A DNA stretch of 41,991 bases from a virus, in IMG/VR virus record IMGVR_UViG_3300045988_086160; one strand, 5' to 3'. The translations under genes and the position numbers were made by a program. Position 1 is the stretch's first letter. Each line of letters starts with the position of its first letter. Of this stretch, positions 11,506 through 36,290 are shown piece by piece. The notes beneath the pieces are model-generated. The model was not told the DNA's origin, ran no database searches, and saw only the letters and a list, made by a program, of their open reading frames with translations.

Positions 11506-11534
11506 TTGACGAATGCAACAATATATGCTATAAT
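11506..11534 (+). promoter_or_regulatory. Sigma-A type promoter, TTGACG-17-TATAAT
   Basis: -35 at 11506-11511, 17-nt spacer, -10 at 11529-11534. The endolysin ATG (11541) lies 6 nt after the -10 with no SD in between. Confidence 0.6.
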
Positions 11535-11540
11535 CAAAAC

Positions 11541-12416
11541 ATGAAGTACGATGTTATTGATTTTATTCGGTGGGGCTTGCGGCATACGATACGTTATGCC
11601 GCCCCCGCTGACGCAAATATGCCGCTGTCGCCCGATGAATGCGGAATATATCCTACACGCTATTTGTTTGGGACAGTATGGAAACCCTGCACCAAAGCTA
11701 CGCTAAACGAGCGTTTTGTAAATCATTACGCAAAACAGGGGTACAGCGAAGAAGATTTTGACCGCATTACGTCTGAATGGTCGGAACGTGATTATGCGAC
11801 AGACTGTCAAGGCTTGCTTGACGCATGGATGACGGTTGAGTGCAACGAGAAGACCGACATTAATGCGCATATGAACTACACCGATTGGTGTACGGACAAA
11901 GGCGCAATTGCCGAGATAAGCCGACCGTATATTATCGGCGAAGCAGTGTTCATGCGGTCAAAGTCGAAAGGAAGAATGACACATGTTGGCTGGATTTGCG
12001 GCAACCTCGGACGTGAACCGCTGGTGCTTGAAGCCCGTGGGTTGCGCTGGGGTGTGGTTATCACCAAGCTCAGTGATAGACCGTGGACGCATCGTGGGTT
12101 GATGACGGTTAAATTTAATTATGGCAAAGGTGACAAAAATATGACAAAATTTGAAGTTGTAAGCCCTATGCGTGAGGGCGAAGAGTACAAAAAAATGCAG
12201 GCGGCATTGAATGCGGCGGGCTACACCGATGAAGCAAAAAAGCCGCTTGTTGAGGACGGAAAGTGGGGAAAGAAATCCCAGTTTGCGTTTGAACGCTTGC
12301 TTGAGAATCACGCTGAATCCGAACCTGTTGAAGAACAGCCTGTAACAATCAGCAAGCCGCACACAATCAAGCTCACCGTTGACGACGTGGACTGCTATGA
12401 ATGCACCGTAAATTAA
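11541..12416 (+). CDS. Endolysin: NlpC/P60-type peptidase with a C-terminal peptidoglycan-binding domain
   Basis: Cys motif DCQGLLDAW and His motif THVGWICG are NlpC/P60-like. The C-terminal ...MQAALNAAGYTDEAKKPLVEDGKWGKKSQFAFERLL fits the PG_binding_1 pattern. Confidence 0.8.
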   Translation: MKYDVIDFIRWGLRHTIRYAAPADANMPLSPDECGIYPTRYLFGTVWKPCTKATLNERFVNHYAKQGYSEEDFDRITSEWSERDYATDCQGLLDAWMTVECNEKTDINAHMNYTDWCTDKGAIAEISRPYIIGEAVFMRSKSKGRMTHVGWICGNLGREPLVLEARGLRWGVVITKLSDRPWTHRGLMTVKFNYGKGDKNMTKFEVVSPMREGEEYKKMQAALNAAGYTDEAKKPLVEDGKWGKKSQFAFERLLENHAESEPVEEQPVTISKPHTIKLTVDDVDCYECTVN

Positions 12417-12693: not shown

Positions 12694-12892
12694 GACGGCG
12701 GCACAAACGGCTTGCGGTGTGCTTGCAACTTCCGCATTGCTGTCCGAAGTCAACTGGGCTGTTGTCGGCTCATCTGCGGCAATGGCGGCTATCGTCAGTC
12801 TCTTAACGTCACTTGCAGGACTCCCCGAAGTGAAGATGCAAGAGCGTGAACGATTGCGAGTAAACAAAAACACGCCCCCCGAGGACGCCTAA
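12641..12892 (+). CDS. Holin
   Basis: 83 aa from ATG 12641. ...IRAIKTAAQTACGVLA...AAMAAIVSLLTSLAGLPE pattern with two TM segments, typical of Gram-positive phage holins. Charged C-terminus. Confidence 0.7.
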   Translation: MKTNWTIWLKAATIRAIKTAAQTACGVLATSALLSEVNWAVVGSSAAMAAIVSLLTSLAGLPEVKMQERERLRVNKNTPPEDA

Positions 12893-12909
12893 TTGGCGTT
12901 CTCTTTTTT
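12881..12909 (+). terminator. Intrinsic terminator after the lysis module
   Basis: GAGGACGCC (12881-12889) pairs with GGCGTTCTC (12895-12903): 9 bp including one G-U, with a 5-nt loop, followed by TTTTTT (12904-12909). Confidence 0.75.
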
Positions 12910-13137
12910 ATGCAAAATATGTCAAATTCAGAATTAAACAGTATATCAAATACTAAAATAATCACTTTGTTAAAGGAATATTGTCACGATTCTGTCGCTC
13001 GTGACATGGCTGTCATGCGGCTAGTTGAAGGCTCAACGTATATTGACATTGCACATATCTTTAACGTATCTCAATCGACAGCCCGCCGCAAGTGCATCAA
13101 GGCTGAAAATGCCGTCAAAATGCACTTAAATGAATGA
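12910..13137 (+). CDS. Stand-alone sigma-70 region-4-like HTH protein
   Basis: 75 aa. ...MAVMRLVEGSTYIDIAHIFNVSQSTARRKCIKAENAV resembles ECF/sigma-70 region 4.2. No SD; the ATG abuts the terminator T-tract, so the start is uncertain. Confidence 0.5.
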   Translation: MQNMSNSELNSISNTKIITLLKEYCHDSVARDMAVMRLVEGSTYIDIAHIFNVSQSTARRKCIKAENAVKMHLNE

Positions 13138-13188
13138 GCATATCCCGTTGCTGTAATATAATTAAATAAACAAGCAATGGAGGTGCGC

Positions 13189-13611
13189 ATGAACCCTTAC
13201 GGATACAATGTGCCGAACATGTACGGCAACAACACGTTCACACCGCAAATGCCGTACAGCCCGCCTGTTACGCAGCCCCAGCTTCCGTTCGGACAGCAAT
13301 CCAACCTGATATGGGTACACGGCATACAAGGCGGCAACGCATACAAAATGGGCGCAAATCAGTCTGTTATCCTGCTTGATGAAACCGCTCCGCTTGCATT
13401 CTTTAAGCGCACGGACAGTGCAGGGTATGCGACTATGGACATTTACGACTTAACCCCTCACAAAGAATCGGAAACAGATTTACAATCAATCGAACAACGT
13501 TTAGCAAAATTGGAGGCACGATTAAATGAATCCGATACTGCAATCTCTAAGCCAAAACAACCCGCAAATGGCAAAAATGCAAGAAATGACGGGCATGATG
13601 CAACAGTATAA
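13189..13611 (+). CDS. Hypothetical protein with a Pro/Gln/Tyr-rich N-terminus
   Basis: GGAGG lies 5 nt before ATG 13189 (the track start 13177 is upstream of the RBS). 140 aa. No family recognised. Confidence 0.6.
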   Translation: MNPYGYNVPNMYGNNTFTPQMPYSPPVTQPQLPFGQQSNLIWVHGIQGGNAYKMGANQSVILLDETAPLAFFKRTDSAGYATMDIYDLTPHKESETDLQSIEQRLAKLEARLNESDTAISKPKQPANGKNARNDGHDATV

Positions 13612-13753
13612 GCAATTCCGCGCTGAGATGGCGGGTAAAGACCCGCAAGCGTTGCTCAACATGCTAATGCAAAACGGCGGCATATCCCAACAGCAGATGC
13701 AACGGGCGCAGGCTCAAGCACAAATGCTTATGCATGCTATGCGTAATCAGTAA
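13526..13753 (+). CDS. Hypothetical Gln/Met-rich small protein
   Basis: 75 aa. GGAGG lies 9 nt upstream. Overlaps the previous ORF by 86 nt in another frame. Confidence 0.5.
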   Translation: MNPILQSLSQNNPQMAKMQEMTGMMQQYKQFRAEMAGKDPQALLNMLMQNGGISQQQMQRAQAQAQMLMHAMRNQ

Positions 13754-13841
13754 CCGACTTTAACAAGTCCATATGGATTATCATCCATCCCAGTGCAACA
13801 GACATGGCAACATGTTTGAATAAATCAAGGATGGTTTTTTT

Positions 13842-14456
13842 ATGGACAACAACTTCACTCCTGCCGATTATGCGGCAATGAACGGCGGCTTCGGCGGCGG
13901 CAATCAGGAATGGCTCTGGATAATTCTGTTCTTCCTGTTTGCAGGCGGCGGAAACGGCTTTGGCGGCAACCGTAAAGACTGCGCAACCACCGAGGACGTG
14001 CAGAACCAGTTCAATTTTGCGGCACTTGAGCGTCAGAACGGCGAGACTGTTGCGGCGGTTGCGAACAACACTACCGCTGTTACCAACGCAGTAAAAGACA
14101 GTGAAATCAGGCTTCAGCAGGGCATCAGCGCACTTGCTGGCATGGAGCAGAACATTATCGGCAATATGTCAAAATGCTGCTGCGAAACCCTTCGTGGCAT
14201 TGACGGCGTGAACTATAATGCCGCAATGAATACCGCTGCAATCAATGCAAACACCACAGCGCAGGTACAGAAGATTCTTGACGCAATCACGGGCAACAGA
14301 ATGGCGGATATGCAGAACCAGATTAACCAGCTCCAGCTTCAGTCACAGCTTTGCGGTGTGGTTCGCTACCCTACCAACACGACCTATTCGGTTAACTCTC
14401 CCTGTTTCTGCGGTAACGGCTTCAACGGCAACGGCGGCTGCGGTTGCGGATACTAA
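13842..14456 (+). CDS. Hypothetical membrane-anchored Gly-rich / Cys-rich protein (YjcZ-like N-terminus by eye)
   Basis: 204 aa. N-terminus GGFGGGNQEWLWIILFFLFAGGGNGFGG, an Asn/Ala/Thr-rich middle, Cys clusters CCCE and CFCGNGFNGNGGCGCGY at the end. Confidence 0.65.
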   Translation: MDNNFTPADYAAMNGGFGGGNQEWLWIILFFLFAGGGNGFGGNRKDCATTEDVQNQFNFAALERQNGETVAAVANNTTAVTNAVKDSEIRLQQGISALAGMEQNIIGNMSKCCCETLRGIDGVNYNAAMNTAAINANTTAQVQKILDAITGNRMADMQNQINQLQLQSQLCGVVRYPTNTTYSVNSPCFCGNGFNGNGGCGCGY

Positions 14457-14477
14457 TCAACTTTGACTTAATCGGCG

Positions 14478-14511
14478 GGTATCATTTTCGTGGCGACACG
14501 AATTTGATACC
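14478..14511 (+). other. Intergenic stem-loop with a GCGA (GNRA) tetraloop
   Basis: GGTATCA..TTCGTG GCGA CACGAA..TGATACC forms 7 + 6 bp around a 2x2 internal loop. No T-tract follows. Confidence 0.5.
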
Positions 14512-14534
14512 TTGCACCATATCGGAGGTAAACT

Positions 14535-14966
14535 ATGTCATGTTCGAATAATTTCAGGAAATCAGCAGTAAGCACGGTAAACACAGCGGCGCAGACCGTA
14601 ACGGCAAACGCAACCCCGCTTTCCCTGCTCGGCAGTGTATGTTACAACAGCGGCTGTTCGCTGTCCGCCAATGCAAGCGGCATCAACATCAAAAGCAGCG
14701 GGCTTTATCCCGCCTCAGGAAGCGTCACAATCACTCCGACAGCGGCAGGGACTGTTACTGTATACCTTGCGCTAAACGGCGTTACACTGCCTTGTAGCGT
14801 GCGTCAGCAAACGGTTGTGGCGGCATCACCTATCACCATAGACACCTCGGCAAGTGCGTTCGGCGCAGGGGCTTGCGCTTGCAACACATCAACTTTAACG
14901 CTTGTTGTCTCGGGTGCAGCCGGAACGGTTGACTATGTAACGGCAGGGGCGGTACGCCTCGCATAA
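14535..14966 (+). CDS. Hypothetical beta-rich protein resembling the C-terminal (C1q/TNF-like) domain of BclA-type exosporium proteins
   Basis: 143 aa, rich in Ala, Thr, Ser, Val and Gly. The segment SSGLYPASGSVTITPTAAGTVTVYLALNGVTLP looks BclA-C-like by eye. GGAGG RBS. Confidence 0.55.
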   Translation: MSCSNNFRKSAVSTVNTAAQTVTANATPLSLLGSVCYNSGCSLSANASGINIKSSGLYPASGSVTITPTAAGTVTVYLALNGVTLPCSVRQQTVVAASPITIDTSASAFGAGACACNTSTLTLVVSGAAGTVDYVTAGAVRLA

Positions 14967-14980
14967 GAAAGGCGGAAGCA

Positions 14981-15550
14981 ATGGCGGCAAGCGAGATACT
15001 GTCTAAAATAGCAACACATCAGATAAAAGGCATAATGTTTCATGCTCAAATGGCGGATTATTTCGACTTTTTGAACCTCCGTGGCTTCAAACGGTTGCAT
15101 GAGTATCAGTACATGAGCGAATCAGCCGAATATCGGAAGACTTGCAGGTTTTGCATAAACCATTGCTACAAACTATGCAAAATCGGGCAAACGGATGACC
15201 CGCACATCATACCCGACAGGTGGTACAGCGCACGGCGGAGCGAAGTGGATACCAACACGAAGCGCAGGGCTGTTGTGGAAGCGTTCGAACGGTATGTATT
15301 GTGGGAGCAAAACACACTGCAACTTTACGAACAGTGCTATTCCGAACTTGTTGCGGAAGGCAAAATTGCAATAGCGGATTATGTCAAAAATCTCATTGCA
15401 GACGTTGCGGACGAACTCAAGCACGCTTCCCGCTTGCGCCTGGAGCTTGCAAACACTGACGGCGATATTATACACGTTTATGACCTGCAAGAGGCTATAC
15501 ACGAGGATTACAAGCAAAAAACGAGGGTGGTCGGCGTGATACTCTCTTGA
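14981..15550 (+). CDS. Hypothetical four-helix ferritin-like protein
   Basis: 189 aa. IKGIMFHAQMADYFDFLNLRGFKRLHEYQYMSESAEYRK echoes ferritin helices A/B, but the metal ligands are not obvious. Confidence 0.55.
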   Translation: MAASEILSKIATHQIKGIMFHAQMADYFDFLNLRGFKRLHEYQYMSESAEYRKTCRFCINHCYKLCKIGQTDDPHIIPDRWYSARRSEVDTNTKRRAVVEAFERYVLWEQNTLQLYEQCYSELVAEGKIAIADYVKNLIADVADELKHASRLRLELANTDGDIIHVYDLQEAIHEDYKQKTRVVGVILS

Positions 15551-15575
15551 CGGCGCATTTTGAACGTGCTATAAT
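15547..15575 (+). promoter_or_regulatory. Sigma-A type promoter, TTGACG-17-TATAAT
   Basis: -35 at 15547-15552 overlaps the TGA of the upstream gene. Exact 17-nt spacer. -10 at 15570-15575. Confidence 0.65.
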
Positions 15576-15648
15576 TATAACCGTCAGACAGGATGAACCT
15601 CTTACCTCGCAGTCAGCAACGGCGGGCGGCTATGATAACACGTTCGCC

Positions 15649-15748
15649 GTTGCAACTCCTTCTTGCCTGTCTTGAGTGAAAAATAAGGCTGCTGCCTTTT
15701 GCGACCGTCATAAATGTCGGTTGCAACTCCTTCTCGCCTGTCTCTGAC
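15649..15748 (+). repeat. Two ~29-nt direct repeats, 71 nt apart
   Basis: 15649-15676 GTTGCAACTCCTTCTTGCCTGTCTTGAG and 15720-15748 GTTGCAACTCCTTCTCGCCTGTCTCTGAC. Each starts with the palindrome GTTGCAAC. Confidence 0.85.
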
Positions 15749-15827
15749 TTTAAAATGGTGCGCATTATGCGCTGTACTATATATCGCAAAGGGGTTTTCT
15801 CAGCCTTCATTTTATTTCCTCCTTCAC

Positions 15828-15868
15828 AAAAGGGAGCTGCTTGCTGGTCACAGGCGGCTCCCTTTTGC
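15828..15868. terminator. Bidirectional intrinsic terminator
   Basis: AAAAGGGAGC (15828-15837) and GCTCCCTTTT (15857-15866) flank a 19-nt loop, with an A-tract 5' and a T-tract 3'. Confidence 0.65.
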
Positions 15869-15899
15869 GTTATATATTTATTTTTCGCTCAAAAAAGGG

Positions 15900-15929
15900 T
15901 TGACACGCACGTTAATGCGGGTGTATAAT
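15900..15929 (+). promoter_or_regulatory. Early-operon sigma-A type promoter, TTGACA-18-TATAAT
   Basis: -35 at 15900-15905 and -10 at 15924-15929, upstream of the first early gene. Confidence 0.65.
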
Positions 15930-15973
15930 ACATGTGCAATCAAAAAGCGGCGACCCCGCAGAAGGAGTAAATT

Positions 15974-16210
15974 ATGAACATGAAGCAAGTACAAACCCGC
16001 ATTGCGTATTACGATGCGCTCCGCAAGCTTATGGCGAACGCCAAAGAAAACATGCGTCAAGCCGAAATCAACCTTGACGATGCTCTCACTGACGGCACGT
16101 CATCGGCAGAAGAAAAAGACCTTGCACAGGCAAGGTATGACGCAGCAGTCAACCTTTACGCAAGGTTAATCAACCTGCCGTTCGAATACGAAGAGGAGGG
16201 CGATTTTTAA
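15974..16210 (+). CDS. Hypothetical small helical protein
   Basis: 78 aa with a GAAGGAG RBS. First gene of the early operon. Confidence 0.6.
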   Translation: MNMKQVQTRIAYYDALRKLMANAKENMRQAEINLDDALTDGTSSAEEKDLAQARYDAAVNLYARLINLPFEYEEEGDF

Positions 16211-21476: not shown

Positions 21477-21902
21477 ATGGAGTTTGTATACAACCTTCGA
21501 GCAATCGGCAAAGGCAGACCCCGAATCAACACATACACGCACGTTGCATACACGCCGAAGACCACACAGGCGTATGAGACGGCTCTGGAGGCTCATACAC
21601 GGGCTTTGATGAGTGCAGACGATAAAATACCTTACCCAGCCGAAATCCCGCTTAAAATCGAAATATGTGCGTTTTACGCTATGCCCAAAAGTTGGAGCAA
21701 AAAGAAACGCGCCGAGCTTGACGGCAAGCCGATGATGCAAAAGCCCGACTGCGACAATGCCGCAAAAGCTATACTTGACGCATTAAACGGTTTAGTGTAT
21801 AATGATGATAAACAGATAACCGAGCTGCACATGACAAAGGTTTACAGCACGGAAGACAAAATAACAGTAAAGATTACGGAGGCAGAAAATGGAGAATTTT
21901 GA
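21477..21902 (+). CDS. rusA: RusA-family Holliday junction resolvase
   Basis: GGAGG RBS before ATG 21477. Motifs KGRPR and DCDNAAKAILDALNGLVYNDDKQI. Confidence 0.85.
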   Translation: MEFVYNLRAIGKGRPRINTYTHVAYTPKTTQAYETALEAHTRALMSADDKIPYPAEIPLKIEICAFYAMPKSWSKKKRAELDGKPMMQKPDCDNAAKAILDALNGLVYNDDKQITELHMTKVYSTEDKITVKITEAENGEF

Positions 21903-22416
21903 AGGACTGGCAATATACGGTGTACAGCCGGGGGAAGTATTTAAAACCGTGAGCGGCACGGACAATACATATGCCGTATCCAACAAAGGCAGGATATTTA
22001 ACTGCCGCAGGCGCAAATTTGTACAGCCCGCAAGCGACACGGTGAGGATAAGACAGGACGGCAAGTGGCGAAACGTAACTCGGCAAAGAGTTGTCGCCGA
22101 AGCCTTCGTGCCGAACCCGAACAACAAGCCTTGCGCACTGAAAATAGACTATGACAAAGGGATTGAAGCCGAAAACCTGTATTGGGGGGAATGGCGGGAA
22201 ACCCTTTACAAACGCAAAGCACAGCAAGGCGACCCACACCCCTTTGTCAAGAAAAGAATCACCGGCACATCAATTCATGATGGCAGCGAGATTCACTACG
22301 ACAGCATGAAAGAAGCAGAAAAGGACGGCTATCTTGTTTGCGGCATAAGCAATTGCGTTCGTGGGCGAAAAAAACGGTACAAGGGCTACACATGGAAGGA
22401 GGTAAACGATGGTTGA
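21889..22416 (+). CDS. NUMOD4 / HNH_3-like protein with degenerate catalytic residues (paralogue 1)
   Basis: YAVSNKGRIFN (NUMOD4-like), VAEAFVPNPNNKPCALKIDYDKGIEAENLYW (HNH_3 layout, but the His position reads K), C-terminal KGYTWK module. Confidence 0.6.
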   Translation: MENFEGLAIYGVQPGEVFKTVSGTDNTYAVSNKGRIFNCRRRKFVQPASDTVRIRQDGKWRNVTRQRVVAEAFVPNPNNKPCALKIDYDKGIEAENLYWGEWRETLYKRKAQQGDPHPFVKKRITGTSIHDGSEIHYDSMKEAEKDGYLVCGISNCVRGRKKRYKGYTWKEVNDG

Positions 22417-22975
22417 GACATGGCAGCCTGTAAAGCGTTTTCCAGATTACGAAGTTTCGAACCTTGGACGTTTTCGGAAAAAGGCAACAGGAAAAGCGGT
22501 AAAGGTGTATAAAGGCTGGTATGTACACCTTATGCGCAACGGCATCCTCTACGCACGGAGTGCAGCAAAGCTGGTTGCGCAAGTTTACGTTCCGAACCCC
22601 GACCCGAAAAACAAAAAACGGGTTGAAAGATACAACCGCAAGTTTACAGACATTCGGGCGGAAAACTTGTATTGGGCAAACTGGGCGGAGCGGGACTGCC
22701 CGGACGAAGACAACCCGATTAAGCAGGCGCAAAAAAAAATTATTGATAAAAAATACGCCGTTATAGGTACATCACTTAAAGACGGACACGAAATCCGCTT
22801 TGAGAGCTGTCAGGCGGCGGGTAGGGCAGGATTCAGCTTCAGGTGCGTCTCCCGATGCTGCCGAGGTGAAAGCAAAACACACAAAGGTTACACATGGAGA
22901 AAGGCGGAGAAAGATAATGACACAGATTCTCGACAGCGGCAACCGTACGGAGTTTCAAACGGGGGCAGTCCGTGA
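22409..22975 (+). CDS. NUMOD4 / HNH_3-like protein with degenerate catalytic residues (paralogue 2)
   Basis: WQPVKRFPDYEVSNLGRFR, VAQVYVPNPDPKNKKRVERYNRKFTDIRAENLYW, KGYTWRK. Same architecture as the upstream gene. The 3' end overlaps the next gene by 59 nt, so the true stop context is uncertain. Confidence 0.6.
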   Translation: MVETWQPVKRFPDYEVSNLGRFRKKATGKAVKVYKGWYVHLMRNGILYARSAAKLVAQVYVPNPDPKNKKRVERYNRKFTDIRAENLYWANWAERDCPDEDNPIKQAQKKIIDKKYAVIGTSLKDGHEIRFESCQAAGRAGFSFRCVSRCCRGESKTHKGYTWRKAEKDNDTDSRQRQPYGVSNGGSP

Positions 22976-23453
22976 CATTCAGCAGGGTAAAGGGCGGTTT
23001 GATTTAATGCCGCTGGACATTATGAGCAAAGTGTTTGAGGTTGAGTTTGCAGACGAATTTGAGGAAGGTAGCATTGCGTATGTGCTGAAATCTATAGCGG
23101 TTTTCCAGCAGACGGGCAACGAAGGCTGGCTGTGTATTGCGATAGCACATTACAGTCAGGCAGTGCATGTTTGCCTCCCAACGCTCATGCTTGACGTTGC
23201 GAAGCATTTCGAAAACGGGGCTTTGAAATACGGAGAACACAACTGGGAAAAAGGTATTCCTGTCAGCCGTTACATTGATTCGGCAGTCAGGCACTTGATG
23301 AAAGATTGCACTTGTGAAACGGACGAAGACCATGCCTCCGCATTTGTGTGGAATTGCATGTGCGCCGCATGGACGATGAAACATAAGCCCGAGATGGACG
23401 ATTACACGCAAAAATGCGACTATCTTGCCTGTAACTTGCCTATAACTTGCTAA
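22917..23453 (+). CDS. dATP/dGTP pyrophosphohydrolase-like protein (DUF5664-type N-terminus)
   Basis: N-terminus MTQILDSGNRTEFQTGAVRDIQQGKGRFDLMP matches the SG.R..F.TGA.RD...GKGR.DL.P signature as I remember it. Start chosen at the internal ATG. Confidence 0.55.
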   Translation: MTQILDSGNRTEFQTGAVRDIQQGKGRFDLMPLDIMSKVFEVEFADEFEEGSIAYVLKSIAVFQQTGNEGWLCIAIAHYSQAVHVCLPTLMLDVAKHFENGALKYGEHNWEKGIPVSRYIDSAVRHLMKDCTCETDEDHASAFVWNCMCAAWTMKHKPEMDDYTQKCDYLACNLPITC

Positions 23454-25061: not shown

Positions 25062-25250
25062 GTGGCAGAGCAATGCCCCGAATGCAGCAACTTGGTGTGG
25101 CTAAAGTGGGACGTTGAGCGTGACGGATACACGATATACTGTCCGTATTGCGGATACCGCATGAGGCTGTGTAGCATGTGCGACGTGAGGGACGGCAGAA
25201 AGTGCGACTGGAATAGCAAGACGGGGGAATGCAAGAATGACAAAAGATGA
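25062..25250 (+). CDS. Zinc-ribbon-like small protein
   Basis: 62 aa with CPEC...CPYC...CSMC...C. GTG start with a weak RBS. Confidence 0.45.
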   Translation: MAEQCPECSNLVWLKWDVERDGYTIYCPYCGYRMRLCSMCDVRDGRKCDWNSKTGECKNDKR

Positions 25251-25695
25251 AATTCTGAAATGGCTAAAGCGGATGAACCTTGCTTTCGGAGGCGAGACGG
25301 CGTACACCTTAGAAGGCGGACACACAGTATACTACACAAGCATCATTGTTGACATCTTTGCGGCGGTGAGCAAAATGGAGACCCCGCCGATGACGTGCAA
25401 GGACTGTCCGTTTTTTGAACCCGTATGGGGCGACAGATTCTTAGGGCGATGCACACAGGCGAAAGCGTGGTTTGAGAACCGCTGCATCTGGGATTACTGC
25501 TCAAACGGCAGAATAACCGAAACAGCCGAGCCGCAACCTGACGGTATACAGTTTCGCACGGTTGATGATTTGGGACGGATATGTATACCGAAAGACATCA
25601 GGGACAAACTCGGTATAAAGCGCGGCACGGAGTGCACAGTGTACGCAACGGACGAATTAACTCCCAACGAAATAATTGTGATACAGAGGAAATGA
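25237..25695 (+). CDS. Protein with a C-terminal AbrB/SpoVT-type DNA-binding domain
   Basis: C-terminal RTVDDLGRICIPKDIRDKLGIKRGTECTVY fits the swapped-hairpin AbrB/MazE/SpoVT motif (GRI.IPK.IR..LGI). Confidence 0.6.
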   Translation: MTKDEILKWLKRMNLAFGGETAYTLEGGHTVYYTSIIVDIFAAVSKMETPPMTCKDCPFFEPVWGDRFLGRCTQAKAWFENRCIWDYCSNGRITETAEPQPDGIQFRTVDDLGRICIPKDIRDKLGIKRGTECTVYATDELTPNEIIVIQRK

Positions 25696-27288: not shown

Positions 27289-27735
27289 ATGAAAAAGATT
27301 TACATCGAAAAAATCCGACAGGCAACCCGCTTTGGGCTGATTGATGAAGACGGACGCAAAACCCCTTGCGGGACATTGTGGTCAGACGCGCAGCGGGAGA
27401 CGTTTGAACGTCTGATGAACGGCGGGAACAACCTCGCCTTTATGGCGTGGGGCGGTGATGACGTAAAGAAATCCGCCTTATGGGCGAAGTGGACGGACGC
27501 TCGGGGGCAAGAGAAACTTTGTAAGCTTGGGACATTCGTGCAGAATGCGCCGATAAAAGAATTTGTGGAAACCGCAACCGAGGAAGCAAAAAGCAACCGA
27601 CACTGCGGAACATGCTCGCATTTTGAGTGTGTAAACCGCAAAGGGCAAATCAGCAGGCAGGGAATGGGCGTATGCACGCTCATAAACAGGGATAGGTACT
27701 GCCTTTTTAAATGCGGAGATTGGAGTATGAGATGA
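27289..27735 (+). CDS. Hypothetical protein with a C-terminal Cys cluster
   Basis: 148 aa with CGTCSHFEC...C...C. Its stop overlaps the next ATG (ATGA). Confidence 0.55.
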   Translation: MKKIYIEKIRQATRFGLIDEDGRKTPCGTLWSDAQRETFERLMNGGNNLAFMAWGGDDVKKSALWAKWTDARGQEKLCKLGTFVQNAPIKEFVETATEEAKSNRHCGTCSHFECVNRKGQISRQGMGVCTLINRDRYCLFKCGDWSMR

Positions 27736-28592
27736 ACGAACTGAAAGCAAAGGAAGCGCAGGCAATAAAAGTGCTGCGCACATTTGAACCCGAAGAAGGA
27801 TACGTTCTCGCCTACAGCGGCGGCAAGGACAGCGACTGCATAAAAATTCTTGCGCAGCTTGCAGGGGTTAAAATCGAGGCGGTGCATAATCTGACAACGG
27901 CAGACGCACCTGAGACTATGCAGTATATAAAGGCGCAACCCGATGTTCGCATCAGTTGGGCGAGGGACAAAAACGGAAACCACGTCACCATGTGGAATCT
28001 AATCGAGACCCACGGACTTCCGACACGAATCCACCGCTTTTGCTGCAACAAGTTGAAAGAGCAAGCGAATCAAGGACGCTTGCTCATAACAGGCGTACGC
28101 AAAGCTGAATCAGTTAATCGAAAACGGGACGGCGGACTTGTGAAAATAATGGGAAAGCCGAAAACGACGGAGAAGCTTGCCCAAGAGATGGGCGTTGAGT
28201 ACATCAAGCCCAGAGAAAATGGGCTTATCCTCAACGATGACAATGATGAATCCCGCCGCATGGTGGAGCAGTGCTATCGCACACGCAAAACCTTAGTTAA
28301 CCCGATTTTGGACTGGACGGACGAGGACGTGTGGGAATTTTTACGCCATTACGGTTGCGAGGGCAACCCGCTGTACAAATGCGGATACAGCCGTGTGGGC
28401 TGTATCGGCTGCCCGATGAAGGGCGGCAAAAAAAGGAAGGAAGAACTTGAGCAGCATCCGAAATATGCGCAAATGTACTTCCGCGCAACGGACAGGATGC
28501 TTAAACGCCGCATGGACGATGGAAAGGAACTTCCGCTTGCGTGGGGTGACGGCAAGCCCGAAACCGTGATGAAATGGTGGCTGGAAAATTGA
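27732..28592 (+). CDS. PAPS-reductase-family PP-loop protein
   Basis: PP-loop YSGGKDSD. C-terminal Cys motif CGYSRVGCIGCP. Start taken at ATG 27732, preceded by GGAG. Confidence 0.75.
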   Translation: MNELKAKEAQAIKVLRTFEPEEGYVLAYSGGKDSDCIKILAQLAGVKIEAVHNLTTADAPETMQYIKAQPDVRISWARDKNGNHVTMWNLIETHGLPTRIHRFCCNKLKEQANQGRLLITGVRKAESVNRKRDGGLVKIMGKPKTTEKLAQEMGVEYIKPRENGLILNDDNDESRRMVEQCYRTRKTLVNPILDWTDEDVWEFLRHYGCEGNPLYKCGYSRVGCIGCPMKGGKKRKEELEQHPKYAQMYFRATDRMLKRRMDDGKELPLAWGDGKPETVMKWWLEN

Positions 28593-28601
28593 GGTGGAAA
28601 C

Positions 28602-29219
28602 ATGAAAATAGTCAACGCAAGCTACAGAATCGAAACGCCGATTGACGGCGCAGAGATACTAAAGCGTATCGAAAAAGCAGGACGTACCTGCTATAAGTCG
28701 GAAGACCGCATAACGGCAGAATCGGCGGAGGCGTTTGTCCGAATGCTGATTGAGCGCGGGCATGAAAGCGTACTTGAGCATGCAAGCATCACCGTACGAT
28801 TTATCTGTGACCGTGGCGTTTCGCATGAGATTGTACGCCACCGCATAGCAAGCTACTCACAGGAGAGCCAACGATATGTACGCTATAACGGCGACATTGA
28901 GTTTATCAACTCTCATATGCCCAATGCAAAAGCGTACGAAGCGTGGCAAGAGTTATGCGAACGTGCCGAGGAAACGTATAAGGAACTGCTGTCGTACGGT
29001 GTGCAGCCGCAACAAGCCCGAGCCGTGTTGCCGAACAGCACGAAAACCGAAATTGTTATGACGGCGAACCTCCGTGAATGGCGGCATTTTTTGAAGCTGC
29101 GGACGGCGAAAGCGGCGCACCCGCAAATGCGTGAGCTGACAGTGCCGCTGCTGCACGAACTGCAACGGCGGATACCTGTCGTTTTTGACGATATGGTTAA
29201 TGCGGAGGAAGGAGTGTAA
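28602..29219 (+). CDS. thyX: Flavin-dependent thymidylate synthase ThyX
   Basis: ThyX signature RHRIASYSQESQRY (RHR..S....S.R). 205 aa. Confidence 0.9.
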   Translation: MKIVNASYRIETPIDGAEILKRIEKAGRTCYKSEDRITAESAEAFVRMLIERGHESVLEHASITVRFICDRGVSHEIVRHRIASYSQESQRYVRYNGDIEFINSHMPNAKAYEAWQELCERAEETYKELLSYGVQPQQARAVLPNSTKTEIVMTANLREWRHFLKLRTAKAAHPQMRELTVPLLHELQRRIPVVFDDMVNAEEGV

Positions 29220-30547: not shown

Positions 30548-31297
30548 ATGCACTATCAAGGCGGCAAATACAGATTCATCAAACATATAACGCCGATAAT
30601 ACAGACGGAGATAGACAAACACCAGGCACGGCATTTTATATCGCCGTTTTGCGGAGCGTACAACATCGAGAGCGCAATCGTGCATACGGACAAACTCTGT
30701 AACGATAAGAATGCTTATACTATTCGAATGTGGCAAGAATTGCAGAACGGCAGGGAATTTCCGTCAACCGTCACGGAAGAGCAGTACAAGCATGTGCGTG
30801 ACCACAAAGACGAAGACCCCGCATTGACAGGATTCATCGGAGCGGGCTGTTCATATGCGGGAAAATGGTTTCACGGCTACGCAAGAGACAGGCGAGGGGC
30901 GAACTATGCGGACGCTGCAAAACGGGGCAATGAACGCATGATGAATGCAGGGCTGAAACACGCAGTATTTACGGCAGGGGACTACAAGGACGTTGAGATA
31001 CCGCCTGACACGGTAATGTATTGCGACCCTCCGTATGCAAACACGCGCGGATATGACGGCGCAAAGGGATTCGACTCCGCCGAATTTTGGGCATACATGG
31101 ACGAGCTTCTTGACAACACACCGAATTTGTCAATTTTCGTATCCGAAAAGACAGCACCAGCGGGATGGCGGGAAGTGTGGCAAAAAGAGTGTTTGCAGGA
31201 AGTCAACAAGAACCCAAAGAATACAGGCAGACGCAGGATAGAGCGACTGTTTTACAAGAGCAACAGAGAGGAACAAGATGGATACATCAAGGCTTGA
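30548..31297 (+). CDS. dam: D12-class N6-adenine DNA methyltransferase (Dam-like)
   Basis: N-terminal YQGGKYRFIKHI and catalytic YCDPPYANT (DPPY). Confidence 0.85.
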   Translation: MHYQGGKYRFIKHITPIIQTEIDKHQARHFISPFCGAYNIESAIVHTDKLCNDKNAYTIRMWQELQNGREFPSTVTEEQYKHVRDHKDEDPALTGFIGAGCSYAGKWFHGYARDRRGANYADAAKRGNERMMNAGLKHAVFTAGDYKDVEIPPDTVMYCDPPYANTRGYDGAKGFDSAEFWAYMDELLDNTPNLSIFVSEKTAPAGWREVWQKECLQEVNKNPKNTGRRRIERLFYKSNREEQDGYIKA

Positions 31298-34250: not shown

Positions 34251-34667
34251 TTACCTTCCGCTGTCGTTCTCCGCTTGTCGCTGAAGTACCCGCAGCGTTT
34301 TAAGCAGGCGGTCACGGTTCAGCCGCTTGCTGTCAATTATTTCATCAATCAAATCTTGCAAGTCGTTCGCAATGCAAAACAGACTATCGGACAACGGCTC
34401 AACCTCCATTTCGAACGCTTCTTTTTCCTCGTAAATCAAATCAATCGTTTGCATAAGTCTTTTTGCCCAAAAAGCAAAGAACGCCGCTAAAGTTTCGTTG
34501 TTTGATTCTTTGAGGGCTTCCGAAACAAGCCCCGAGACTGAAACGCCTTTTTCTGCAAGTGCCTTCACGACGGAAGGGCAGCCGAAATAGTACGTTGACA
34601 GTTTGTCTTTGCAATGCAAGCCTTTTTCCCGTTTTTCGTATTTGCCGCAAAATTCTGCATATGTCAT
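34251..34667 (-). CDS. Hypothetical protein (island gene 4)
   Basis: 138 aa. Its GGAGG RBS lies inside the end of the upstream gene. Helical, with an acidic centre. No family recognised. Confidence 0.65.
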   Translation of the reverse strand: MTYAEFCGKYEKREKGLHCKDKLSTYYFGCPSVVKALAEKGVSVSGLVSEALKESNNETLAAFFAFWAKRLMQTIDLIYEEKEAFEMEVEPLSDSLFCIANDLQDLIDEIIDSKRLNRDRLLKTLRVLQRQAENDSGR

Positions 34668-34670
34668 TTT

Positions 34671-35063
34671 TTAATCCTCCCTGCTATCGGTGAACACGGG
34701 CTGCACAACGGCTTGCGTTCTGTCGGTGTTTAATGCATATATCACAAGCCGCCGCCGTCTTTCGGCGGCATCGCAGTTCCGGAGTTCGATTCTGACCGTC
34801 CCGCTAAAAAGTGGAAGCAACGCCTTAAGGGTTTCAACGTCAATATCGATGGTCTCAATTGCGCCTCCGCACGGCATGTATGAGTAAACATCCGATGCCG
34901 TGCATACTGAGTTTTCGTCTTCCGGCACATACGCAACGCCGAAACGACTGTACAGCGTTAACCCGTTGCTGTCGGCATACAAGCTTCCGCTGTCGTTTCC
35001 GTCAACCTTGTTTAATTGCTTGCGTATTTTTTGCATTTTTTCGAAAGTCTTCCCATTAATCAT
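34671..35063 (-). CDS. Hypothetical protein (island gene 3)
   Basis: 130 aa from ATG 35063, preceded by GGAGAAGGAG. The track start at 35108 is upstream of the RBS. Confidence 0.6.
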   Translation of the reverse strand: MINGKTFEKMQKIRKQLNKVDGNDSGSLYADSNGLTLYSRFGVAYVPEDENSVCTASDVYSYMPCGGAIETIDIDVETLKALLPLFSGTVRIELRNCDAAERRRRLVIYALNTDRTQAVVQPVFTDSRED

Positions 35064-35168
35064 TTTTTTCTCCTTCTCCCCCGTATAGCCAGATAGGACA
35101 GCTTGCAATTTATTTTTTAATCAACAGCGGCAATGCCGCAAGTACCAGCAGGAAAAGCACGAAAGTCA

Positions 35169-35393
35169 TTAATACCACCTCAGCCTTTTCAAAACGCCGT
35201 AGTACGCGCGGATTCCGTACACGTTGTTATAGCACCCGAGCTTTTTATCGAAGACGTACGGAAAAACTTGCTTTTGCTCCGTGCCGCTGTCATTTTGCCA
35301 GACTCCGTTGCATATCCTGCCGTCTTCAACTCGGAAGCTCAGATTCTCGTTTTTTTTGTGCCAGCCGTCGATGTATGTTGTTCTTTTACTCAT
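35169..35393 (-). CDS. Hypothetical small protein (island gene 2)
   Basis: 74 aa with an AAGGAGG RBS. Rich in Trp, Tyr and Gly. Confidence 0.55.
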   Translation of the reverse strand: MSKRTTYIDGWHKKNENLSFRVEDGRICNGVWQNDSGTEQKQVFPYVFDKKLGCYNNVYGIRAYYGVLKRLRWY

Positions 35394-35411
35394 TGTCTTC
35401 TTCCTCCTTCG

Positions 35412-36290
35412 TTAAGACAGCCTGTAGATATAGTACGTTTCGTCATATGACGTGACTTCATGTTCCTCGCCGTCATATGACGAAATGAAATGCCCGCGTC
35501 CGTCGGCTGCAATTGCGTCTTCGACGAACTCATTCAAATCGTCAATCAACGCTTGGATAATTGCGTTCGCGCCTTCGCAAAGTCTTTTTTGTACAGCCCG
35601 AATCGCAAGCCGTAAATCATTCAAATCGACGGGGTCGTCACAATACACAATGTCGTGTTTTAAGTGTTCAGCTATGAACTCGGGGTTGAATGCCCACAAT
35701 TCGGCTTTGATTATCTGGTATGCAAGCGCATATGCCCGCTCGTCTTCAAGCACATAAAACTCTTCGCCGCAAGCTTCATACCGATACTCGCTGTAGGGGC
35801 TGCTGAAATAGCGGGCAACCGTGACTGATTTCATATCGTCTTCGGTGTAGCCGTCGCGTTGGGCTATGAATTTTTTCAAGGCAACCTCTTCCGGGTAGCT
35901 TTTTTCAGTGAGCGTTTGCTCATTGTCTTCGTCCTCCTTCTCATCGAGTATCTTTTGAACTTTGTCGTTTCCCAGACTGTCTTCCTCCGACAGGATATAG
36001 TCGGCAATGTCTTCAGCAAATATCGGCAATTCCCACGCGCCGTACGAATCAAGATTACCGTATCCGTCGGTGCCCCAGAAGTCTTTCATGAAGTCAAAGT
36101 CGCCAGACCGAATCATGCGTACAAGTTCCCATTTTTCGACGCCGTCGAGCACTTCTTCAAGCTCGTCCATGTCGTATATATAGTCGTCCGCGCAGTTAGC
36201 GGCAGCGCAATAAGCATTATGCAATGCAATTTTATCGTCGATGCCCATGCCGTTGATATAATCAACGAGTTTCTTTTTCATTTCGTTCAT
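35412..36290 (-). CDS. Very acidic hypothetical protein (island gene 1; possible DNA mimic)
   Basis: 292 aa. My hand count gives about 69 Asp/Glu versus about 27 Lys/Arg. The C-terminus GRGHFISSYDGEEHEV..YYIYRLS faintly resembles ArdA-type proteins. Confidence 0.65.
   Translation of the reverse strand: MNEMKKKLVDYINGMGIDDKIALHNAYCAAANCADDYIYDMDELEEVLDGVEKWELVRMIRSGDFDFMKDFWGTDGYGNLDSYGAWELPIFAEDIADYILSEEDSLGNDKVQKILDEKEDEDNEQTLTEKSYPEEVALKKFIAQRDGYTEDDMKSVTVARYFSSPYSEYRYEACGEEFYVLEDERAYALAYQIIKAELWAFNPEFIAEHLKHDIVYCDDPVDLNDLRLAIRAVQKRLCEGANAIIQALIDDLNEFVEDAIAADGRGHFISSYDGEEHEVTSYDETYYIYRLS

What the first reader, a model, noticed from the sequence alone, without database searches (positions are those of the whole stretch)
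12910..15550. Six-gene cargo cassette after the lysis module with spore-surface / sporulation flavour
Directly after the holin terminator come six + strand ORFs that are neither virion nor lysis genes:
- A stand-alone sigma-70 region-4-like HTH.
- A 140-aa protein with a Pro/Gln/Tyr-rich N-terminus.
- A 75-aa Gln/Met-rich protein.
- A 204-aa protein. Its N-terminus (GGFGGGNQEWLWIILFFLFAGGGNGFGG) looks like YjcZ-type sporulation peptides, and its C-terminus is Cys-rich (CCCE..., CFCGNGFNGNGGCGCGY), as in cysteine-rich coat or exosporium proteins.
- A 143-aa beta-rich protein resembling the C1q/TNF-like C-terminal domain of BclA exosporium proteins.
- A ferritin-like four-helix protein.

These resemblances are by eye only. 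Combined with the parS sites and the AbrB/SpoVT-domain gene, they suggest the phage modifies the spore surface or sporulation of its host. I do not know of such a cargo set being described for a phage.
Basis: inference. Interest (0 to 1): 0.65.

Follow-up and report, generated by a model that had tools for sequence, protein, structure and literature searches.

The report
Conserved phage accessory operon after lysis genes

Summary
All six + strand ORFs exist as described, directly after a terminator-like hairpin that overlaps the holin stop codon.

Two by-eye resemblances hold up:
- O5 (143 aa) belongs to a family in which 27 of 50 members hit Pfam BclA_C. Its model best matches BclA and BxpB/ExsFA.
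- O6 (189 aa) models as a true ferritin fold, with only part of the ferroxidase site retained.

The YjcZ and coat-protein resemblances of O4 got no profile support.

The main new result is that this is not idiosyncratic cargo. O2-O3-O4-O5 recur in the same order in about 140 viral contigs and 60 species genomes. The flanking genes there are unrelated. The last gene is variable, and about 40% of modules have an O1-like HTH gene upstream.

The module usually sits beside lysis or tail-fibre genes. A terminator-like hairpin often precedes it. One close relative carries a deletion removing O5 and most of O6.

It also occurs in prophages of non-sporulating Phascolarctobacterium and Mogibacterium, and no Bacillus-type sporulation promoter consensus was found. 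The spore reading is therefore not supported.

Best guess, at moderate confidence: a dispensable, host-cell-directed complex anchored to the membrane by O4. Its function is unknown and appears undescribed.

The parts
12881..12903 (+). Terminator-like hairpin (GAGGACGCC-TAATT-GGCGTTCTC, then TTTTTT). It overlaps the holin stop codon and marks the 5' boundary of the cassette.
   Evidence: A comparable hairpin lies within 400 nt upstream of the O2 homologue in 42 of 82 distinct relatives, against 4 of 82 in a control stretch inside the module.
12910..13137 (+). O1: 75-aa stand-alone HTH of the sigma-70 region 4 / LuxR-GerE type. Probable regulator of the operon. It has no ribosome-binding site.
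   Evidence: HTH_Tnp_4 1.7e-6; Sigma70_r4 5e-3. PHROG sigma factor 4.8e-4 and Q-like antiterminator 2.5e-3. Syntenic analogues hit GerE/Sigma70_ECF and Sigma70_r4. Such a gene lies upstream of O2 in 30 of 72 distinct relatives.
13189..13611 (+). O2: 140 aa counted from the ATG with a GGAGG site. It has a Pro/Gln/Tyr-rich N-terminus, a conserved ~60-aa beta-type core (xRVxGxxGAxAYQMxPNSxxLLDE...TDGAGY), a short coiled coil and a low-complexity tail. Core module gene.
   Evidence: phrog_21718 at 8e-12. Alignments. No match to any solved structure.
13526..13753 (+). O3: 75-aa Gln/Met/Asn-rich helical protein with NPxLQ and NPQ motifs. It overlaps the O2 tail by 86 nt. Core module gene. The window copy lacks the C-terminal GGDPKxAFY...ILxMLK segment found in most relatives.
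   Evidence: phrog_22984 at 3e-11. Alignments. Only insignificant RAD23/STI1-like matches.
13842..14456 (+). O4: 204 aa. It has an acidic N-tail, one Gly-flanked hydrophobic segment (probable membrane anchor, N-out/C-in), a long helical region, an invariant CCC (112-114), the strongly conserved stretch NTAAINANTTAQxQKILDAIxGNRMADMQNQINxLQLQ...GVVRYP, and a variable Cys/Gly tail. It is the most conserved gene of the module.
   Evidence: phrog_16490 at 2.4e-12. Alignments. Hydropathy and charge analysis. 632 representatives of 50%-identity clusters at E <= 1e-3. No Pfam, NCBIfam, PADLOC or PDB relation.
14535..14966 (+). O5: 143-aa stand-alone BclA_C / C1q-TNF-like jelly roll with a nearly invariant CxC (114, 116).
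   Evidence: Profile search found 188 homologues; 27 of 50 sampled members hit PF18573 BclA_C. AlphaFold2 pLDDT 89. Top Foldseek PDB hits are BclA (3tyj, 1.5e-7; 1wck), BxpB/ExsFA (8d02, 7r5i) and F-BclA, followed by TNF ligands and phage knobs.
14981..15550 (+). O6: 189-aa ferritin-fold protein (four-helix bundle plus a fifth helix). This is the variable last position of the module.
   Evidence: AlphaFold2 pLDDT 91.6. Foldseek matches archaeal and bacterial ferritins (3kx9, 2.4e-5, TM 0.75/0.86). Profile against PDB ferritin gives E = 0.0056. The Pfam Ferritin match is only E = 0.87. In other modules this position holds a ~100-aa rubrerythrin-like protein or DUF7841, with no detectable relation to O6.

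Best explanation
The six genes form one compact accessory operon. It moves horizontally among otherwise unrelated tailed phages of gut and rumen anaerobes, and it acts on the infected or lysogenic cell rather than forming part of the virion or the core lysis machinery.

Shown:
- The gene order O2-O3-O4-O5 is conserved, with a variable last gene and a frequent upstream HTH gene.
- The module is insulated from upstream genes by a terminator-like hairpin.
- O5 has a BclA/BxpB-type TNF-like fold.
- O6 has a ferritin fold with a partly retained metal site.
- O4 is the only product with a hydrophobic segment.

Inferred mechanism:
- O4 inserts into the cytoplasmic membrane with its short acidic N-tail outside and its conserved helical, CCC-bearing domain inside.
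- This domain serves as a scaffold for the soluble partners.
- O5 probably works like BxpB/ExsFA, as a trimeric adaptor that clamps a partner's terminal peptide. Its CxC motif and the cysteines of O4 may form metal or disulfide links.
- O2 and O3 would be adaptor- or chaperone-like partners.
- O6, or its rubrerythrin-like substitutes, would bind metal or handle redox chemistry.
- O1 would control read-through or initiation past the hairpin.

The physiological outcome is not established. Candidates are conditioning of the membrane, exclusion of other phages, or a fitness effect.
For: Conservation and mobility:
- The genes occur in the same order in 85 IMG/VR loci. In most of them none of the window's flanking genes has a homologue.
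- The same holds in 60 species genomes.
- O4 has 632 cluster representatives.
- O5 homologues occur in contigs labelled Sipho-, Podo- and Myoviridae and in 35-178 kb genomes.

Position:
- The module lies at the end of the late region, or at a prophage end next to host genes.

Insulation and regulation:
- An upstream hairpin is present in 42 of 82 relatives, against 4 of 82 in the control.
- An O1-like HTH gene is present in 30 of 72.

Dispensability and independence from the virion:
- A close relative, L003, has a 974-bp deletion that removes the last codons of O4, all of O5 and most of O6.
- Ruminococcus flavefaciens FD-1 keeps intact O4 and O6 in a prophage remnant with no virion genes nearby.

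Location in the cell:
- Only O4 has a hydrophobic segment. Its N-flank averages a net charge of -3 with almost no Lys or Arg. None of the products has a signal-peptide-like segment.

Folds.
Against: - There is no experimental or homology-based functional anchor for O2, O3 or O4.
- No sigma-70 promoter was found for the cassette in the window. Sigma-70 promoters are not enriched upstream of O2 in relatives. Expression may therefore simply be read-through of late transcripts.
- In several phages the module is embedded among tail-fibre genes.
- Cultured Clostridium phages CS266P1-4 carry only a small 76-aa gene plus an O6 homologue directly after a tail-fibre gene.
- No integrase was found among the window ORFs that were scanned, so a lysogen-benefit role cannot be general.
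- There is no PADLOC match.
- The O4 topology and all protein contacts are inferred, not computed.
Confidence: 0.4

Rival explanations
1. The products are a portable virion accessory set. O5 would be a trimeric knob or decoration protein, the coiled-coil proteins O2 and O4 would be fibre or adaptor parts, and O3 and O6 would be assembly chaperones.
For: - TNF-like knobs are common at phage fibre and vertex tips: PRD1 P5, the Sf6 and HS1 needle knobs and cyanophage fibres appear among the PDB hits, and tail-fibre and collagen-repeat proteins appear among the BFVD hits.
- The module lies directly after receptor-binding or fibre genes in L148, L150, L152 and Dulem virus 36.
- Phages CS266P1-4 have the small gene plus O6 right after a tail-fibre gene.
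- O2, O3 and O5 have strong ribosome-binding sites.
- The module occurs in phages with no lysogeny genes nearby.
Against: - The module is shared by phages with unrelated tail and head genes, yet the O4 C-terminal half is its most conserved part.
- O4 carries a membrane-type segment.
- In the window the genes lie beyond the lysis terminator, and in many relatives they have their own HTH gene.
- A natural deletion of O5/O6 exists.
- O4 and O6 are retained in a remnant without virion genes.
Confidence: 0.2
2. The module is an accessory lysis-timing system. O4 would be a holin- or antiholin-like membrane protein with a large regulatory domain, and the soluble partners would sense redox or metal state.
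For: - The module directly adjoins holin and endolysin genes in the window and in L010, L030, L075, L105, L146, L151 and L154.
- O4 has one N-terminal hydrophobic segment plus a ~150-aa domain. From my own knowledge, this layout resembles single-pass holins such as T4 T or BhlA/XhlA-type proteins.
Against: - There is no sequence relation to any holin or antiholin family.
- The window already has an r1t holin and a second small membrane protein.
- In several phages fibre genes separate the module from the lysis genes.
- Five conserved partners are more than known lysis regulators need.
Confidence: 0.1
3. One reading: the cassette modifies the spore surface or sporulation of the host. It would be made in the mother cell and deposited on the forespore.
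For: - The best structural matches of O5 are the exosporium proteins BclA, BxpB/ExsFA and F-BclA, and the family hits Pfam BclA_C.
- None of the products has a signal peptide, as is true of coat proteins.
- O1 analogues hit the GerE HTH family.
- Ferritin-superfamily proteins, Cys-rich proteins and Tyr-rich proteins are known in spore coats (my own knowledge).
- Most assigned hosts are Clostridia.
Against: - The complete module lies in a prophage on a 545-kb Phascolarctobacterium contig next to ExbB/ExbD/TonB genes. It also lies in a Mogibacterium prophage next to GroES/EL. Both genera are described as non-sporulating (my own knowledge).
- No Bacillus or Clostridium sensu stricto genome appears among the 60 genome loci.
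- O4 gave no YjcZ, CotY/ExsY or other spore family match.
- No SigK/E/G/F/H consensus lies in or before the cassette.
- O5 lacks the collagen-like region and the N-terminal targeting part of BclA.
Confidence: 0.07

Closest known systems
BclA C-terminal domain and BxpB/ExsFA (Bacillus cereus-group exosporium proteins; Pfam PF18573 BclA_C; PDB 1wck, 3tyj, 8d02, 7r5i)
   Same: O5 has the same C1q/TNF-like jelly-roll fold (TM about 0.7; E 1e-7 to 1e-6). Its family hits BclA_C. Like BxpB/ExsFA, it is a stand-alone domain of about 140 aa.
   Different: Sequence identity is about 15%, and the window protein itself gets no Pfam match. It has no collagen-like repeats and no exosporium-targeting N-terminus. 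It is encoded in phages, including prophages of non-sporulating hosts.
Prokaryotic 24-mer ferritins (Ftn; for example Archaeoglobus fulgidus 1s3q/3kx9, Pyrococcus furiosus 2jd6)
   Same: O6 models as a four-helix bundle with the long B-C loop and a fifth helix (TM 0.75/0.86). A profile match covers helices A and B. Glu47, Glu109 and Glu145 align with the bridging and site-B glutamates.
   Different: It falls below the Pfam threshold (10 bits against a 24.5-bit cut-off). The site-A Glu and His positions are variable in the family, and an invariant His21 replaces the conserved Tyr. Oligomeric state and iron oxidation are untested.
Phage morons and lysogenic-conversion cassettes inserted at the end of the late operon, next to the lysis genes (for example lambda bor/lom and the staphylococcal immune-evasion cluster; my own knowledge)
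   Same: The position is the same: after lysis genes or at a prophage end. The module is insulated by a terminator, is dispensable and has spread horizontally into unrelated phages.
   Different: This is a conserved five- to six-gene operon, not a single gene. No clear promoter of its own was found in the window. It also occurs in phages with no detected lysogeny genes and among tail-fibre genes.
TNF-like knob domains of phage fibres and vertices (PRD1 P5, Sf6 tail-needle knob, cyanophage short-fibre domains)
   Same: The fold class is the same.
   Different: Those knobs are C-terminal domains of long fibre proteins. O5 is a free 143-aa protein encoded next to a membrane protein.
GerE and sigma-70 region 4 small HTH regulators
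   Same: O1 and its syntenic analogues are proteins of about 75 aa that consist only of this HTH.
   Different: The matches are weak (below the gathering scores for Sigma70_r4). The target site and mode of action (activator or antiterminator) are unknown.

Membership tests
BclA_C (PF18573) / C1q-TNF-like jelly roll | Match to the Pfam model | tested here: inconclusive
   The window O5 has no Pfam hit at E <= 1. However, 27 of 50 family members found with a profile of O5 relatives do match (best 1.4e-8).
BclA_C (PF18573) / C1q-TNF-like jelly roll | Ten-strand jelly-roll fold superposable on BclA-CTD | tested here: met
   AlphaFold2 model with pLDDT 89. Top PDB hits are 3tyj, 3twi, 2r6q, 2z5w and 1wck, at E 1.5e-7 to 1e-6 and TM about 0.7.
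BclA exosporium glycoprotein (whole protein) | Collagen-like GXX repeat region and an N-terminal exosporium-targeting segment | tested here: not met
   O5 is 143 aa, with only about 10 residues before the first strand and no GXX repeats.
BclA_C / TNF-like | Homotrimer | not testable with these tools
   Only monomer prediction was available.
Ferritin (PF00210; ferritin-like superfamily) | Four-helix bundle with the B-C loop and helix E | tested here: met
   (pLDDT 91.6; ferritins are the top 50 PDB hits).
Ferritin (PF00210) | Score above the Pfam gathering cut-off | tested here: not met
   10 bits against 24.5. The profile against PDB ferritin gives E = 0.0056.
Ferritin (PF00210) | Complete ferroxidase centre (site-A Glu and His, bridging Glu, site-B Glu residues) | tested here: not met
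   In the HMMER alignment to 5ls9/1s3q, the site-A Glu aligns with the variable Q14 and the His with the variable position 50. E47, E109 and E145 are invariant.
YjcZ family sporulation protein (tiny Gly-flanked TM peptides) | Match to the NCBIfam or Pfam model | tested here: not met
   O4 has no NCBIfam family at E <= 1, and no Pfam family either for O4 or for 20 relatives. The resemblance is compositional only.
Cysteine-rich coat and exosporium proteins (CotY/ExsY, CdeC type) | Sequence family match | tested here: not met
   None in Pfam or NCBIfam and none in PDB sequences. Only CCC(112-114) is invariant; the C-terminal Cys tail varies.
Sigma-70 region 4 / LuxR-GerE HTH | HTH domain match | tested here: inconclusive
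   O1: HTH_Tnp_4 at 28 bits (cut-off 27); Sigma70_r4 at 16.8 bits (cut-off 24.1). Syntenic analogues carry precomputed GerE and Sigma70_r4 hits.
Moron (autonomous transcription unit in a late operon) | Own promoter and flanking terminators | tested here: inconclusive
   The upstream terminator-like hairpin is present. No good sigma-70 promoter was found in the window, and none is enriched in relatives. A T-run followed by an extended -10-like element occurs in only a subset (8 observed against 1.45 expected).
Known anti-phage defence systems (PADLOC-DB) | Match of any component | tested here: not met
   No hit for any of the six proteins at E <= 0.1.
Sporulation-controlled genes | SigE/SigK/SigG/SigF-type promoter upstream | tested here: not met
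   No match to Bacillus-type consensus patterns in 12700-15600. Matches across the whole window are at or below shuffle expectation. The consensus strings came from my own knowledge and may not fit the unknown host.

The most novel reading that the evidence does not exclude
The module may be a previously unrecognised, widespread phage system that builds a self-assembling layer on the inner face of the host membrane, or on another cytoplasmic target. The layer would be linked by cysteines and metal, and would use a BxpB/BclA-type trimer and a ferritin-like protein. If so, the exosporium BclA/BxpB family and this phage module would share a common origin, and phages would carry a portable 'coat-building kit' with a new role in infection.
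Probability: 0.12. Interest if true: 0.8.

Novelty: new variant of a known kind. Interest (0 to 1): 0.55.

Why it matters
A five- to six-gene operon of unknown function is present in hundreds of gut and rumen phage lineages, and its three core families are labelled 'unknown function' in PHROGs. That makes it a sizeable blind spot in phage annotation.

It combines a membrane protein carrying one of the most conserved motifs in these genomes, a free exosporium-type TNF-like trimer and a ferritin-fold protein. This combination was not found described for phages.

Working out its role would explain a recurrent feature of gut viromes. It could also reveal a new way in which phages act on the host membrane, or handle metal and redox chemistry in anaerobes.

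The result also corrects a tempting over-reading. BclA-like and ferritin-like folds in a phage do not by themselves indicate manipulation of spores.

Tried and rejected
- **Family scans.** Pfam, NCBIfam, PHROGs and PADLOC scans of all six proteins gave only 'unknown function' PHROG families, weak HTH hits for O1 and no defence match.
- **PDB sequence searches.** Single proteins and profiles of O2, O3 and O4 gave nothing significant. The best were coiled-coil noise, FtsB at E 0.4-1 and RAD23/STI1 at E about 1.5.
- **O4 relatives against Pfam.** Nothing was found.
- **DNA and protein searches of annotated collections.**
  - A distant blastn of the cassette against phages found one unannotated 6.7-kb record.
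  - An O4 tblastn against phages found only that same record, although two complete phage records do carry the module. This search is therefore insensitive for O4.
  - The plasmid search found nothing.
- **RNA families.** Rfam gave no match in 12800-16100.
- **Promoters.**
  - A sigma-70 promoter scan upstream of O2 in 82 relatives gave scores no different from shuffles.
  - De novo k-mers gave only the ribosome-binding site and T-runs followed by ATGC.
  - Sporulation sigma consensus patterns gave no hit.
- **Last-position gene.** hhalign of O6 against the ~100-aa rubrerythrin-like genes and against DUF7841 found no relation, so I dropped the idea that the last gene is always a ferritin homologue.
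- **Cluster names.** They gave only one organism name.
- **Literature.** Four searches on BclA/prophage, ferritin-like/phage, DUF7841 and BclA_C/phage, plus one on the CS266P isolates, found no description.
- **Host assignments.** The 'Treponema', 'Alistipes' and similar MAG assignments were not used. Those contigs are phage-sized, or the host genes look Firmicutes-like (spoVG/ispE).


Full report
**Observation**

The six + strand ORFs are present at the stated coordinates:
- O1, 12910-13137
- O3, 13526-13753
- O4, 13842-14456
- O5, 14535-14966
- O6, 14981-15550

Upstream lies a lysis cassette. It has a sigma-70-like promoter of its own at 11506-11534, an endolysin (phrog_2649), a small membrane protein and an r1t-type holin (PF16945, 2.5e-13). 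A terminator-like hairpin at 12881-12903 overlaps the holin stop codon, and its T-run ends at the O1 ATG. Downstream come an intergenic region and then Sipho_Gp157, a Rad52-like gene, SSB and replication genes.

**The products one by one**

*O1* gives weak hits to small HTH families: HTH_Tnp_4 at 1.7e-6, Sigma70_r4 at 5e-3, a PHROG sigma factor at 4.8e-4 and a Q-like antiterminator at 2.5e-3.

*O2, O3 and O4* match PHROG families of unknown function at about 1e-11 to 1e-12. They match nothing else in Pfam, NCBIfam, PADLOC or PDB sequences.

*O4* in particular gave no YjcZ or coat-protein match, so that resemblance stays compositional.

*O5* alone has no Pfam hit. A profile of its relatives retrieved 188 proteins, many carrying a precomputed PF18573 hit. 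On rescanning, 27 of 50 matched BclA_C (best 1.4e-8). Its AlphaFold2 model has a pLDDT of 89. The model best matches the BclA C-terminal domain (3tyj, 1.5e-7; 1wck), then BxpB/ExsFA and F-BclA, then TNF ligands and phage knobs such as PRD1 P5 and the Sf6 needle knob.

*O6* models with a pLDDT of 91.6 as a four-helix bundle plus a fifth helix. All 50 listed PDB matches are ferritins (3kx9, 2.4e-5; TM 0.75/0.86). Its family profile hits ferritin sequences at E = 0.0056.
- In that alignment the invariant Glu47, Glu109 and Glu145 fall on the bridging and site-B glutamates.
- The site-A Glu and His positions are variable in the family.
- An invariant His21 replaces the conserved Tyr.

O6 therefore has a ferritin fold with an incomplete ferroxidase centre.

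**A conserved module, not idiosyncratic cargo**

A search of IMG/VR with O4 found 148 relatives. A tblastn of the window's genes against the fetched loci showed O2, O4, O5 and O6 in the same order at 25-55% identity. In those loci none of the window's tail, lysis or replication genes has a homologue.

Iterative HMMs put O2-O3-O4-O5 in nearly all loci that are not truncated, and O6 in about half. The same holds for 60 loci from species-representative genomes.

O4 is the most conserved member. It has an invariant CCC and the stretch GNRMADMQNQI...L. It has 632 representatives of 50%-identity clusters at E <= 1e-3.

The last position is variable. It holds O6, a ~100-aa rubrerythrin-like protein (Pfam Rubrerythrin, 7e-5 to 7e-3) or DUF7841. 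Neither alternative is detectably related to O6. Some modules have an extra ~80-aa gene before it.

**Context and hosts**

Annotated contexts and ORF inspection place the module at the end of the late region.
- After holin and endolysin: the window, L010, L030, L105, L146, L151, bajarodcaudo virus 5.
- Between fibre genes and lysis genes: L012, L045, L072, L150.
- Among fibre genes: L148, L152, Dulem virus 36.
- At the prophage end next to host genes: L146, L105.

Carriers range from 35 to 178 kb. They include contigs labelled Sipho-, Podo- and Myoviridae.

Hosts are mostly gut and rumen Clostridia. However, a complete module (O1 analogue, O2-O5, DUF7841) sits on a 545-kb Phascolarctobacterium contig immediately before ABC-transporter, ExbB, ExbD and TonB genes. 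Another sits in a Mogibacterium prophage before GroES/EL. Both genera are described as non-sporulating (my own knowledge).

Ruminococcus flavefaciens FD-1 retains only intact O4 and O6, in a prophage remnant without nearby virion genes.

A close relative of the window, L003, has a 974-bp deletion spanning window 14430-15403. It removes the last codons of O4, all of O5 and most of O6.

Cultured Clostridium phages CS266P1-4 have only the small gene plus an O6 homologue, directly after a tail-fibre gene.

**Regulation**

A terminator-like hairpin lies within 400 nt upstream of O2 in 42 of 82 distinct relatives, mostly 10-110 nt away. The control inside the module gives 4 of 82.

A small sigma-r4-like HTH ORF ends within 700 nt upstream of O2 in 30 of 72 relatives. 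In several of these relatives the order is HTH gene, hairpin, O2. In the window the hairpin precedes O1 instead.

Sigma-70 promoter scores upstream of O2 do not exceed shuffles. A T-run followed by an extended -10-like element is enriched, but only in a minority (8 observed against 1.45 expected). In the window no convincing promoter precedes O1 or O2. No Bacillus-type sporulation sigma consensus occurs in 12700-15600.

Expression therefore depends either on read-through of the hairpin or on an unrecognised promoter. O1 is the obvious candidate regulator (inference).

**Likely mechanism (inference)**

O4 is the only product with a hydrophobic segment. The 20 family members all have one Gly-flanked stretch of 12-15 hydrophobic residues. 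It is preceded by an acidic tail (mean net charge -3, almost no Lys or Arg) and followed by a near-neutral region. This fits an N-out/C-in single-pass protein.

None of the other products has a signal-peptide-like segment, so any complex would form on the cytoplasmic side.

By analogy with BxpB/ExsFA, a free TNF-like trimer that anchors partner proteins through their terminal peptides (PDB 9h3d appears among the hits), O5 may clamp a terminal segment of O4 or O2. The invariant CCC of O4 and CxC of O5, together with the ferritin-superfamily partner, suggest metal- or thiol-dependent links.

None of these contacts was tested.

**Weighing the readings**

Several points favour a host-directed accessory complex over a virion part:
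- the module's independence from virion type;
- the extreme conservation of the O4 cytoplasmic half across unrelated phages;
- insulation by a terminator and a dedicated HTH gene;
- the natural deletion in L003;
- the virion-less remnant in R. flavefaciens FD-1.

The frequent position among fibre genes, the strong ribosome-binding sites and the CS266P arrangement keep the virion-accessory rival alive.

Adjacency to holins, together with the layout of O4, keeps a lysis-timing role possible.

The spore reading rests only on fold resemblances that phage fibre knobs share, and the host distribution contradicts it.

I found no integrase among the window ORFs that I scanned. The scanned ORFs do include an antirepressor, D5-like primase, DnaC-like loader, ThyX and homing endonucleases. 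A purely lysogenic-conversion role would therefore not explain the window copy.

**Novelty**

The core families are 'unknown function' in PHROGs. No cultured phage with the whole module turned up: two metagenome-derived complete genomes carry it, and the CS266P isolates carry only the O6 pair. Five literature searches found no description.

The components have known folds, and the genomic niche (the end of the late operon) is a known site for accessory genes. I therefore rate it as a new variant of a known kind, with unknown function.

Noticed in passing
window 15547-15867: Between O6 and the early genes lies an 11/12 sigma-70 promoter (TTGACG-17-TATAAT with TG, 15547-15575) that overlaps the O6 stop codon. 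About 250 nt later comes a 17-bp-stem terminator (15827-15867). The ~290-nt stretch folds far better than shuffles (z = -6.4, 0 of 200) and has no Rfam match. It is a candidate structured non-coding RNA.
   Followed up: partly
window 15649-15672 and 15720-15743: A 24-nt direct repeat (GTTGCAACTCCTTCT[T/C]GCCTGTCT) occurs with 71-nt spacing inside that stretch. Close relatives L003, L004 and L006 lack 35 nt here (window 15685-15719).
   Followed up: partly
window 15900-15929: A perfect 12/12 sigma-70 promoter (TTGACA-18-TATAAT) lies just before the first early or replication gene at 15974.
   Followed up: no
window 11506-11541: The lysis cassette has its own 11/12 promoter. Its -10 element ends 6 nt before the endolysin ATG, and there is no ribosome-binding site, which suggests a leaderless endolysin mRNA.
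   Followed up: no
window 13526-13611: O3 starts, with its own GGAGG site, 86 nt inside the 3' end of O2 in another frame. An O2/O3 overlap recurs in relatives (median about -59 nt by raw ORF calls) and covers the poorly conserved O2 tail.
   Followed up: partly
window 22800-23453, 27711-28592, 28602-29219, 30548-31297: A set of nucleotide-metabolism and modification genes: the N-terminal domain of a dATP/dGTP diphosphohydrolase, a PAPS-reductase-like protein, ThyX and a D12-class adenine methyltransferase. The phage DNA may be modified.
   Followed up: no
window 21889-22416 and 22409-22975: Two adjacent NUMOD4 / I-HmuI-like homing endonuclease genes.
   Followed up: no
window 25237-25695: A 152-aa protein with a MazE/AbrB-type domain (PF04014, 2.1e-5). 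The domain is generic and not specific to sporulation.
   Followed up: no
window 34251-36290, minus strand: The only sizeable minus-strand gene cluster (138, 145 and 292 aa) has no Pfam match and only 'unknown function' PHROGs. No integrase or recombinase was found among the window ORFs I scanned, so the lifestyle is unresolved.
   Followed up: partly
L003 6588-6596 (IMGVR_UViG_3300045988_086554): A close relative (93% nt identity) carries a 974-bp deletion corresponding to window 14430-15403. It removes the end of O4, all of O5 and most of O6.
   Followed up: yes
L153 6706-7522 (Clostridium phage CS266P4, OP172778.1): Cultured phages CS266P1-4 carry only a 76-aa protein (…FIGFLIGVANYQENLTQ…) and an O6 homologue (34% identity), directly after a 368-aa tail-fibre-like gene. 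This is a possible experimental handle on O6.
   Followed up: partly
L125 7764-9103 (Ruminococcus flavefaciens FD-1, ACOK01000103.1): An isolate genome keeps intact O4 and O6 homologues side by side, without O2, O3 or O5. They lie in a prophage remnant next to recombinase, integrase and repressor genes and host genes.
   Followed up: partly
L142 (MAG labelled Treponema, JAGCNW010000030.1): The host genes beside this prophage (spoVG next to ispE; rsfS, nadD) look Firmicutes-like. The bin label may be wrong, and several other odd host labels sit on phage-sized contigs.
   Followed up: no
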